From positions 18,771 to 82,770 of the IMG/VR virus record IMGVR_UViG_3300042868_012782: a stretch of 64,000 nucleotides of DNA, one strand, 5' to 3'. The notes beneath the pieces were generated by a model. It was given only the letters and a program-made list of their open reading frames with translations, was not told where the DNA came from and did no database searches. Shown here in pieces: positions 56,181 through 57,434 of this stretch (within the stretch, counting starts at the first letter, position 1; every line of letters starts with the position of its first letter). A program made the translations under genes and the position numbers. The stretch is from a virus.

Positions 56181-56770
56181 GTATTGTGCTGGATCTTCCC
56201 GACAATCTTGACGTGTTGACCAAGTGCTTGAGCATGGTGGCTGCTTATCGTCAAGATGGAGCAACAGAAGTAGTTGTTCCATGGGAGGGTCGACCACGCG
56301 ACATATTGCCAATTCTTAAAGCATTCAGCTCTCGCATTTTCTGGAAATTAATTTTGTGTCCATCGGGAAAAGGGGGGAGTCTGGCAGCTATGCCTTATGC
56401 GTCAGGCGACAATCCGATTGTCATGAGTCACCGAATTCTTGTTGATTCTGAGACTCTCAAGTCTCTCTTTGCCTCTCCTGGTCGTGCGTCTGTTTATCGA
56501 GCAGAAAATTTTCCCTTGCAGTGGGATCCTTATTCGTTTTGGTTACCGGCAGAATATAGAGAGGCTTGCTTTTCATATCCGGTACAAACACAGCATGTTG
56601 TAACAGAAGAATATCCAATGTGCGCTAGCGGTCAGTCGTGGTCTGGCACAAGCGTTCTTTTGCTGCCTGGAACTGATTTTAGATTGGGTGAAAATCTAAG
56701 TCAAAATGAAGCAATTGTGATTAGTAGCACGGACAAGCCGAGTTTTCCACCAGATGAAGATCGTCTTTGA
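56174..56770 (+). CDS. hypothetical protein, weak GT-A-like N-terminus
   Basis: LSIVL...LTKCL.......EVVV. Confidence 0.45.
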   Translation: MLSIVLDLPDNLDVLTKCLSMVAAYRQDGATEVVVPWEGRPRDILPILKAFSSRIFWKLILCPSGKGGSLAAMPYASGDNPIVMSHRILVDSETLKSLFASPGRASVYRAENFPLQWDPYSFWLPAEYREACFSYPVQTQHVVTEEYPMCASGQSWSGTSVLLLPGTDFRLGENLSQNEAIVISSTDKPSFPPDEDRL

Positions 56771-57434
56771 TCATGTTGAAGGATGGGGAAAGATCTGCCG
56801 ATCCGACCTCATTTATGCTCCGTGCTGGGCATATCCAGAAGGCGAGTCTTCTGATGATATGCTTGAAGCCGGATGGCTTCCTTGGCAGGGTAGGTGGTTT
56901 CCTGCTCGATCAGTTCGCTTAGAACTAGCAGCTGTTCAGTTCGGACGAACAGTGCAAAAATGTTCTCGAAAGATTCAGGCTCTAGATCGTCGACCAACTA
57001 TTTCAGAAATGGAATACGTAGCGCGCTTGTATATGGAAAAAAAGGGCTTTTGCAGTCCGCATGTTTTCAAAGAAATTTTTGACAATCCGAACTATCGATA
57101 CATCACTTTTTCCCACAACAATAAGGTTGTTGGTTTTATTGCATACCTTCTATTTCAACGCTCCTTCGTCGGAGTGCAATTTGCCTGGGATTATGAAACA
57201 CCTCAATTATCTCTCGGCTCAGTCAGCACCTATCTGGAAGTTGAGATTGCCCGAAGGGAGGGGTGTCAACATTACTATATGATGGGTGGCTATGAGGTGG
57301 ACAGTGCCTACAAAGCTCAGCTCGGCGGTTTTGAATGGTGGACAGGCCAAGTGTGGTCGCAAGATCGCTCAATCTACCTTGAGCTGTGCTCGCGAGACTC
57401 TCGCATTATCTTGGAAAACCATGGTCATATTTGA
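56754..57434 (+). CDS. aminoacyl(Arg)-tRNA-protein transferase-like (ATE1/Bpt) enzyme
   Basis: LEAGW...RSVR; FAWDY..PQLSLGS...E...A...G..HYYM.G.....YKA. Confidence 0.75.
   Translation: MKIVFDHVEGWGKICRSDLIYAPCWAYPEGESSDDMLEAGWLPWQGRWFPARSVRLELAAVQFGRTVQKCSRKIQALDRRPTISEMEYVARLYMEKKGFCSPHVFKEIFDNPNYRYITFSHNNKVVGFIAYLLFQRSFVGVQFAWDYETPQLSLGSVSTYLEVEIARREGCQHYYMMGGYEVDSAYKAQLGGFEWWTGQVWSQDRSIYLELCSRDSRIILENHGHI

What the first reader, a model, noticed from the sequence alone, without database searches (positions are those of the whole stretch)
56754..57434. Phage aminoacyl-tRNA transferase (ATE1/Bpt-like) inside the glycan island
It carries the ATE C-domain signature (DY...SLG...E...YY..G.....YK) but no obvious N-terminal Cys cluster. 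Such enzymes add Arg or Leu from aa-tRNA to N-termini for N-degron proteolysis. A phage copy could mark host or defence proteins for degradation or, given its neighbours, aminoacylate a glycan.
Basis: partly seen in the sequence, partly recalled or inferred. Interest (0 to 1): 0.7.

Follow-up and report, generated by a model that had tools for sequence, protein, structure and literature searches.

The report
Cysteine-less phage ATE/Bpt-like transferase module
This lake phage encodes a stripped-down relative of the enzymes that move an amino acid from a charged tRNA onto another molecule; it belongs to a large, unstudied, almost purely viral family that travels with a tiny barrel-shaped partner protein rather than with the sugar genes around it, so its target is probably neither a glycan nor the classic protein-degradation tag.

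Summary

The family occurs on at least 549 IMG/VR contigs, against 7 MAG loci in about 186,000 cellular genomes. Its one conserved neighbour is a 67-aa small beta-barrel protein (57421-57624) immediately downstream, seen in 40 of 44 lineages. The glycan island is shared only by close relatives, and 7 of 8 near-complete genomes with the module have no GT4 or GT2 gene.

The acceptor remains unknown. The partner protein, or something it binds, is my best guess. A CPR bacterial member sits between mraY and murC. In related phages a 5hmC-carbamoyltransferase cassette occupies the same slot upstream of the small gene.

This scan had already met the family on other DNA (e1-5835184, e1-5835196).

The parts
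56754..57434 (+). Gene for the 226-aa Cys-less ATE1/Bpt-like aminoacyl-tRNA transferase homologue (N-lobe plus one GNAT domain)
   Evidence: The start is supported by invariant M1-K2 in 15 homologues. The ATG overlaps the upstream ORF (ends 56770) by 17 nt.
56877..56882 (+). Codons for Leu42-Pro43, which align with the Arg-Arg of the Bpt/ATE1 GFRRSG motif (reader of the acidic acceptor)
   Evidence: hhalign mapping. RR is 12/12 in Bpt. Family columns are L/I/A and P/L/I/Y. Role of klAte1 Arg80: PMC9351520.
57237..57239 (+). Codon for Glu162, equivalent to klAte1 Glu277 (the essential negative charge of the Arg-binding donor pocket)
   Evidence: HMM alignment to klAte1 with residue roles from PMC9351520. 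Invariant in the 15 close homologues and 68/83 in the broad family. Bpt has Gln in 9/12.
57309..57314 (+). Codons for Tyr186-Lys187, equivalent to klAte1 Tyr303-Lys304 and FemX Lys305 (catalytic)
   Evidence: Lys187 is 82/83 and Tyr186 is 71/83 in the family. Both are 12/12 in Bpt. Codons read.
57421..57624 (+). Gene for the 67-aa small beta-barrel partner protein. Its ATG lies 14 nt inside the end of the transferase gene.
   Evidence: It sits directly downstream in 40 of 44 lineages. Mean column identity is 70% with 14 invariant residues. The model has four strands and pLDDT 71.5, with weak SH3/Tudor/KOW-type matches. The 112-aa GTG ORF from 57286 is an ORF-calling artefact.

Best explanation
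The gene encodes a minimal, cysteine-free member of the ATE1/Bpt branch of GNAT-fold aminoacyl-tRNA transferases. It belongs to a large, almost exclusively viral family.

Inferred mechanism: it binds the 3' end of an aminoacyl-tRNA and transfers the aminoacyl group to a nucleophile on an acceptor. Lys187 stabilises the tetrahedral intermediate and Tyr186 helps, as in ATE1 and FemX.

Donor (inferred): the pocket (Gly140/Ser158/Glu162/Tyr174) is of the ATE1 type (Ser/Ser/Glu/Tyr) and not the Bpt type (Ala/Ala/Gln/Leu or Val), so the donor is most likely Arg-tRNA or another basic aminoacyl-tRNA.

Acceptor (inferred): the Arg-Arg reader of acidic N-termini and the Zn/Fe-S site are gone, so the acceptor is not an Asp/Glu N-terminus.

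Partner: the enzyme forms a conserved two-gene module with the 67-aa beta-barrel protein encoded immediately downstream. That protein is most likely its partner, either as the substrate itself or as the subunit that brings the substrate. Its position inside the glycosyltransferase island is a feature of this phage clade and not of the family.

Shown here: homology, fold, conserved residues, gene linkage and distribution. Inferred: tRNA dependence, donor, acceptor and the role of the partner.

For: Catalytic residues: K187 82/83 and Y186 71/83, with roles taken from PMC9351520.

Donor pocket. The CPR bacterial member in a cell-wall cluster has Ala/Met at these positions, which fits the idea that the position tracks the donor.

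Loss of Cys and RR: (0/83 hit ATE_N).

Module: the small gene is at +1 in 40/44 lineages while all other neighbours vary.

Viral distribution: at least 549 IMG/VR contigs against 7 MAG loci; Atlas clusters are 96-100% viral.

Independence from glycan genes.
Against: No biochemical data exist for any member.

The donor inference rests on four aligned positions. In the broad family only Glu162 is well kept (68/83); position 174 is mostly Leu or Val.

The small protein also occurs without the enzyme, including in two complete phage genomes. Its sequence does not differ between linked and unlinked copies except at Pro6. In L171 the same backbone lacks the enzyme. The adjacency could therefore be positional, an accessory gene docking next to a backbone gene, and not functional.

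Gene overlap is the rule throughout this operon and so is not specific evidence of a complex.

In two independent GT-rich clades (this one and L009) the module does lie among sugar-related genes.
Confidence: 0.55

Rival explanations
1. Glycan or sugar-nucleotide aminoacylation. In this clade the enzyme adds an amino acid from aminoacyl-tRNA to a sugar or amino-sugar made by the neighbouring glycosyltransferase, nucleotidyltransferase and methyltransferase genes, decorating a virion or cell-surface glycan.
For: The gene lies inside a tightly overlapping operon with GT4, GT2, an NTP_transf_3 nucleotidyltransferase and a CheR-like methyltransferase. This arrangement is syntenic in 9 related contigs. 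In the distinct L009 clade the module again lies beside a HAD phosphatase, a methyltransferase, DUF5672, a GT2-methyltransferase and a GT4. Enzymes of this fold do aminoacylate non-protein acceptors: MprF on a lipid hydroxyl, FemX on UDP-MurNAc-pentapeptide and Sbb17 on streptothrisamine.
Against: Seven of 8 near-complete module-bearing phage genomes have no GT4 or GT2 gene at all. In G060 the GT genes lie more than 40 kb from the module. Family-wide, the only conserved neighbour is the small protein.
Confidence: 0.15
2. Classic N-degron enzyme. It adds a destabilising or pro-destabilising residue to N-termini of host or defence proteins so that ClpS/ClpAP degrades them. An added Arg could, for example, then be leucylated by the host LFTR.
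For: Its closest characterised relatives, ATE1 and Bpt, do exactly this (PMC9351520). Full-length homology and fold are shared. Two nearly invariant arginines, R52 and R55 (81/83), remain in the N-lobe and could read an acceptor.
Against: The RR motif that reads Asp/Glu and Tyr25 (aligned to Lys13) are substituted. The 8-residue deletion removes the YRP.C segment, whose Tyr I tentatively equate with klTyr87. The metal site that shapes the acceptor cleft is lost. No ClpS-like gene was seen next to the module. The cellular member sits in a peptidoglycan cluster, not beside clp genes.
Confidence: 0.12
3. Fem-like modification of the host cell envelope. It aminoacylates a peptidoglycan precursor or a membrane lipid, as FemX and MprF do, altering the host wall during infection.
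Against: This rests on a single cellular example at 22% identity. That member has a different donor pocket and no small partner. The phage proteins have no membrane segment or signal that I noticed. This reading gives the small partner no role.
Confidence: 0.12
4. Ordinary acyl-CoA-dependent GNAT acyltransferase that merely resembles ATE_C, or an inactive pseudo-enzyme.
Against: Only ATE1 aligns over the full length including the N-lobe. The Tyr-Lys pair specific to aminoacyl-tRNA transferases is kept in 82/83 members. Strong conservation (65% mean column identity among close homologues) argues against a decaying gene.
Confidence: 0.08

Closest known systems
Bacterial Bpt (Asp/Glu-specific leucyl-tRNA-protein transferase; Pfam ATE_N + ATE_C, about 240 aa)
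   Same: Same size and two-lobe architecture. Homology is full length (hhalign global 99.2%, 222 columns; local 98.9%, E 1.5e-17). Shared residues: the Gly of GFRRSG, the Arg of VRI, SLG, the Tyr-Lys pair, and the C-terminal E...G..W.
   Different: All four Cys (12/12 in Bpt) are lost. RR becomes Leu-Pro. An 8-residue deletion removes YRP.C. The Tyr of C.YL becomes Lys. The donor pocket is Gly/Ser/Glu/Tyr instead of Ala/Ala/Gln/(Val or Leu). No member hits Pfam ATE_N (0/83). NCBIfam Bpt models score about 20 bits against cut-offs of 170-252. The family is viral and is linked to a small partner gene.
Eukaryotic ATE1 arginyltransferase (PDB 8tzv, 7wfx/7wg1, 7tif, 8e3s)
   Different: ATE1 is about 500 aa with a large C-terminal domain. 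It has the C4 zinc/Fe-S site and Arg80 for acidic N-termini, and both are absent here.
FemX/FemABX, MprF/aaPGS and Sbb17/Sba18 (other aminoacyl-tRNA transferases acting on non-protein acceptors)
   Different: Those enzymes have tandem GNAT domains or membrane domains and align only with residues of about 30-200. The N-lobe here is of the ATE/Bpt type.

Membership tests
ATE1/Bpt aminoacyl-tRNA-protein transferases | ATE_C GNAT domain above the Pfam gathering score | tested here: met
   29.1 bits against a cut-off of 25. 53 of 83 family representatives also hit it.
ATE1/Bpt aminoacyl-tRNA-protein transferases | Recognisable ATE_N domain | tested here: not met
   0 of 83 members hit Pfam ATE_N. 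Only profile-profile and structural comparison show that the N-lobe is homologous.
ATE1/Bpt aminoacyl-tRNA-protein transferases | Four-cysteine Zn/Fe-S site in the N-lobe | tested here: not met
   The Cys are invariant in 12/12 Bpt. They align to W11, a deletion, W48 and A51. No Cys is conserved in the N-lobe.
ATE1/Bpt aminoacyl-tRNA-protein transferases | Basic residue(s) of GFRRSG that read an acidic N-terminal residue (klAte1 Arg80) | tested here: not met
   RR is 12/12 in Bpt. Here it is Leu42-Pro43, and the family columns are hydrophobic.
ATE1/Bpt aminoacyl-tRNA-protein transferases | Catalytic Lys and adjacent Tyr (klAte1 Lys304/Tyr303) | tested here: met
   K187 is 82/83 and Y186 is 71/83. 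Roles come from PMC9351520.
ATE1/Bpt aminoacyl-tRNA-protein transferases | Two-lobe fold superposable over the full length | tested here: met
ATE1/Bpt aminoacyl-tRNA-protein transferases | Aminoacyl-tRNA-dependent transfer to a protein N-terminus | not testable with these tools
   Needs an enzyme assay.
ATE1-type (Arg donor) versus Bpt-type (Leu donor) pocket | Acidic residue at the klAte1 Glu277 position, with Ser and Tyr neighbours | tested here: met
   G140/S158/E162/Y174 are invariant in the 15 close homologues. E162 is 68/83 family-wide. Bpt has A/A/Q/(V or L).
FemABX peptidyltransferases | Tandem GNAT domains (about 330-420 aa), often with a coiled-coil insertion | tested here: not met
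   226 aa with a single GNAT plus an ATE-type N-lobe. FemX aligns only with residues of about 26-198.
LFTR (Aat) | Leu_Phe_trans family sequence and fold | tested here: inconclusive
   No Pfam hit at E <= 1. Foldseek E 1.2e-5 but TM only 0.45.
Acyl-CoA GNAT acyltransferases | Q/R-x-x-G-x-G/A pyrophosphate-binding loop and acyl-CoA use | tested here: inconclusive
   The loop reads L-S-L-G-S-V-S, with no conserved Gln or Arg. Cofactor use cannot be tested here.

The most novel reading that the evidence does not exclude
The ATE-like enzyme is a nucleic-acid modifier and not a protein or glycan modifier. In relatives whose small beta-barrel protein is 72-76% identical to that of L001, a close relative of this phage, the slot directly upstream of the small gene holds a TS-like hydroxymethylase plus a 5hmC-carbamoyltransferase-type enzyme (the known 5-carbamoyloxymethylcytosine route) instead of the ATE-like gene. 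If the two enzymes are functional alternatives, and the SH3/Tudor-like partner is a DNA-binding accessory, then the ATE-like protein would aminoacylate (arginylate) a base or nucleotide from charged tRNA. That would be the first tRNA-dependent DNA hypermodification.
Probability: 0.07. Interest if true: 0.95.

Novelty: new variant of a known kind. Interest (0 to 1): 0.6.

Why it matters
Aminoacyl-tRNA transferases outside the ribosome are few: ATE1, Bpt, LFTR, Fem, MprF and some natural-product enzymes. None has been characterised in a phage, and I found no paper on one in the library searched.

Here a family present on hundreds of viral contigs keeps the catalytic core but has lost exactly the parts that define the known acceptor specificity. 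It always sits next to one small conserved protein.

The report gives a concrete, cheap experiment with a clear prediction: Arg-tRNA as donor, and not an acidic N-terminus as acceptor. The result could reveal a new way for phages to use the host's charged tRNA pool, whether to tag proteins, walls or possibly nucleic acids.

It also corrects the assumption that this gene belongs to the phage's glycosylation system.

Tried and rejected
1. Cultured-phage relatives. tblastn of the enzyme and megablast of the region against 50,697 phage records found nothing. The small protein has one weak hit in an uncultured sewage phage. PHROGs has no family for either protein.

2. Fused forms. A search among proteins of 397-2000 aa found none. 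This is weak evidence.

3. Frameshift fusion with the 112-aa ORF at 57286. Rejected. Homologues start at an ATG 4-23 nt before the transferase stop, and conservation begins there.

4. DNA hydroxymethyl-pyrimidine glycosylation or aminoacylation in this clade. There is no TS-like gene in this record or in two near-complete close relatives, and only 2 of 8 complete module-bearing genomes have one. The Tet_JBP search was uninformative because its control was empty.

5. An acceptor residue specific to enzyme-linked partners. Comparing 61 linked and 19 unlinked small proteins found only Pro6 to differ.

6. A dedicated toxin-antitoxin pair. Unlikely, because the small protein occurs alone in complete genomes.

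7. Sequence or fold identity of the small protein. No Pfam or PDB sequence match. Foldseek hits all have E of about 0.1 or worse.

The cap on Pfam/PHROG searches was reached, so several neighbours (55383, 56174, 57615, 58358) stay unannotated.

Full report
OBSERVATION

The ORF at 56754-57434 (+) encodes 226 aa. It passes the Pfam gathering score for ATE_C (29.1 bits against 25; residues 113-186) and for the FemAB-like GNAT domain Acetyltransf_6 (26 bits against 22). Fifteen homologues, nearly all of 225-229 aa (one of 235), are 46-96% identical and share 67 invariant positions, including M1-K2, which fixes the start.

The window is an uncultured phage. It carries a split DnaE-type polymerase, a ribonucleotide reductase, a DnaB-like helicase, a C5 DNA methyltransferase and PhoH. 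The record is 82.8 kb and is estimated to be 56% complete.

WHAT THE PROTEIN IS

Sequence evidence:
- The close-family profile hits K. lactis and yeast ATE1 in the PDB at E 1.2e-4.
- An 83-member profile hits ATE1 at E 7e-9.
- I fetched 12 genuine Bpt genes from a sample of proteobacterial genomes (one locus from an unpublished genome was left out).
- hhalign of the phage family against these Bpt gives 99.2% probability over 222 columns in global mode. In local mode it gives 98.9%, E 1.5e-17, over 182 columns that include the N-lobe.

Structural evidence:
- An AlphaFold model (pLDDT 83.4, pTM 0.84) finds ATE1 first in Foldseek, at E 2.6e-8.
- The other aminoacyl-tRNA transferases follow: Sbb17/Sba18, FemX, MprF/PGS and LFTR.

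The protein is therefore a full-length, remote homologue of Bpt/ATE1 and not just a GNAT domain.

WHAT IS KEPT AND WHAT IS LOST

I took residue roles from the klAte1 structure paper (PMC9351520). I mapped them through the HMM alignment to klAte1 and the hhalign alignment to Bpt.

Kept:
- Lys187 corresponds to Lys304 and FemX Lys305 (catalytic). It is 82/83 in the family.
- Tyr186 corresponds to Tyr303 (71/83).
- Trp145 corresponds to Trp260.
- Also kept are the SLG loop, Arg55 (the Arg of VRI, 81/83) and the C-terminal E...G..W.

Donor pocket:
- klAte1 has Ser255/Ser273/Glu277/Tyr289.
- This protein has Gly140/Ser158/Glu162/Tyr174, all invariant in the close family.
- The 12 Bpt, which use Leu, have Ala/Ala/Gln/(Val or Leu), as the paper states for Bpt.
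- Glu277 carries the essential negative charge that binds the Arg side chain. Glu162 is 68/83 across the viral family.
- From this I infer a basic donor, most likely Arg-tRNA.

Lost:
- All four metal-binding Cys, which are 12/12 in Bpt. They align to W11, an 8-residue deletion, W48 and A51.
- The Arg-Arg of GFRRSG, which becomes Leu42-Pro43. These columns are hydrophobic family-wide. Arg80 of klAte1 is essential for reading Asp/Glu N-termini.
- The Tyr of C.YL, which becomes Lys13.
- None of the 83 members hits Pfam ATE_N. NCBIfam Bpt models score about 20 bits against cut-offs of 170-252.

The enzyme therefore fails the defining acceptor-side features of Bpt/ATE1 while passing the catalytic ones.

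DISTRIBUTION

An exhaustive phmmer search of 1.84 billion representatives finds only 156 clusters at E <= 1e-3, and the full-length hits are nearly all 200-275 aa. The family's C-terminal motif picks out at least 549 IMG/VR contigs. In one genome for each of about 186,000 prokaryote species it picks out only 7 loci, all on MAG contigs.

Four of those 7 score 225-237 bits to the family HMM and lie on contigs that may be viral. One is clearly cellular. The Atlas agrees that the nearest clusters are 96-100% viral. It also flags Bacteroidota ATE_C/Acetyltransf_6 clusters that I did not follow. No cultured phage in INPHARED carries the gene, and there is no PHROG family for it.

NEIGHBOURHOOD

I called ORFs on 97 loci, clustered the proteins, and dereplicated the enzyme at 85% identity into 44 lineages.

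- The only recurrent neighbour is a protein of about 65 aa at position +1. An HMM finds it downstream in 40 of 44 lineages, and its start lies 4-23 nt inside the end of the enzyme gene.
- In the window it is 57421-57624, with ATG 57421 and a 14-nt overlap.
- It is far better conserved than the enzyme: 70% mean column identity and 14 invariant residues.
- It has no Pfam, PHROG or PDB sequence match.
- It models as a four-stranded small beta-barrel (pLDDT 71.5), with weak SH3/Tudor/KOW-type matches.

The glycan-island genes recur only in the nine closest contigs. Among 18 module-bearing phage genomes only three have any GT4 or GT2 gene, and only one of the eight that are at least 90% complete. 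The family's function therefore cannot depend on phage-made glycans. There is a caveat: in this clade and in the L009 clade the module does lie among sugar-related genes, so a clade-specific link is not excluded.

THE PARTNER SEEN FROM ITS OWN SIDE

Of 77 loci fetched with the small protein as query, 53 have the enzyme upstream and 24 do not.

- Two complete phage genomes have the small protein but no enzyme.
- In L171 the same downstream backbone as ATE-bearing phages lacks the enzyme.
- In L105-L111 the upstream slot holds a 570-580-aa NodU/CmcH-type carbamoyltransferase. Its stop overlaps the small gene's start. A divergent TS-like gene directly precedes it in all five genomes checked.
- That is the cassette known to make 5-carbamoyloxymethylcytosine (PMC8670742). 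Apart from the small gene, those loci share nothing with ATE-bearing loci.
- Linked and unlinked small proteins differ only at Pro6.

The small protein therefore has a function of its own. The enzyme behaves as an accessory gene that is nearly always docked to it. Whether that reflects a physical partnership or only a favoured insertion site remains open.

CELLULAR RELATIVE

On a 149-kb contig of a Magasanikiibacteriota (CPR) MAG, a divergent member lies between mraY and murC. It scores 126 bits to the family HMM against 38 bits to Bpt. It has Ala and Met at the Glu162 and Ser158 positions and has no small partner. This is a Fem-like context. It also supports the idea that position 162 tracks the donor.

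DNA-MODIFICATION RIVAL

This genome has a C5 methyltransferase but no TS-like gene. Two near-complete close relatives also lack one. Only 2 of 8 complete module-bearing genomes have a TS-like gene. The TET search had no positive control. A DNA target therefore remains a low-probability but very interesting reading, and it rests on the slot-sharing with the carbamoyltransferase.

VERDICT

Best reading (about 0.55): an active, Cys-less ATE/Bpt-like aminoacyl-tRNA transferase that probably uses Arg-tRNA, does not target acidic N-termini, and works with or on the co-encoded small beta-barrel protein.

It is a new variant of a known kind. The scan had already noted the same family and its partner on other genomes (e1-5835184, e1-5835196). 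My analysis agrees with those notes and adds three things: the donor-pocket argument against real Bpt sequences, the genome-wide test against glycosyltransferases, and the alternative occupancy of the slot by the 5hmC-carbamoyltransferase cassette.

Noticed in passing
L105-L111 (e.g. L107:1268-3246; G001:C1:54330-56653): In phages whose small beta-barrel protein is 71-76% identical to this clade's, the gene directly upstream of the small gene, with an overlapping stop, is a 570-580-aa NodU/CmcH carbamoyltransferase. A divergent thymidylate-synthase-like gene precedes it. This matches the published 5-carbamoyloxymethylcytosine cassette plus an unreported small partner.
   Followed up: partly
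L033:6714-9967: In a Magasanikiibacteriota (CPR) MAG, a divergent member of this Cys-less family (219 aa) lies between mraY and murC. It has Ala and Met at the donor-pocket positions. This suggests a Fem-like, tRNA-dependent step in peptidoglycan-precursor synthesis in a CPR bacterium.
   Followed up: partly
window 57286-57624: The 112-aa GTG ORF listed by the ORF finder, and its tblastn 'conservation' across the overlap, are artefacts. The real gene starts at ATG 57421. The antisense ORFs at 57406-57642 and 57498-57767 are also spurious.
   Followed up: yes
L009 and L021 (IMGVR_UViG_3300024509_000007, 221 kb); L014 and L025 (IMGVR_UViG_3300024358_000009, 206 kb): Each of these long contigs carries two non-identical copies of the module about 150 kb apart, with different neighbours. 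The contigs look like end-to-end joins of two related genomes of about 150 kb and not single genomes.
   Followed up: no
L009:8858-10886: In the L009 clade the module is followed by a HAD acid phosphatase, a methyltransferase-like ORF, DUF5672 and a PduO-type cobalamin adenosyltransferase. A classical GNAT acetyltransferase is transcribed divergently upstream. This is an unusual accessory operon.
   Followed up: no
window 55383-56770 and 57615-58825: Four conserved ORFs flank the module (265, 198, 248 and 155 aa). They have no Pfam or PHROG match and are syntenic in all close relatives. Their role in the island is unknown.
   Followed up: partly
L136-L148, L169 (upstream of the small gene): Where the enzyme is absent, the small gene often follows very lysine-rich ORFs of 50-170 aa. 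Together with the SH3/Tudor-like fold, this hints that the small protein may act on nucleic acid or chromatin-like material.
   Followed up: no
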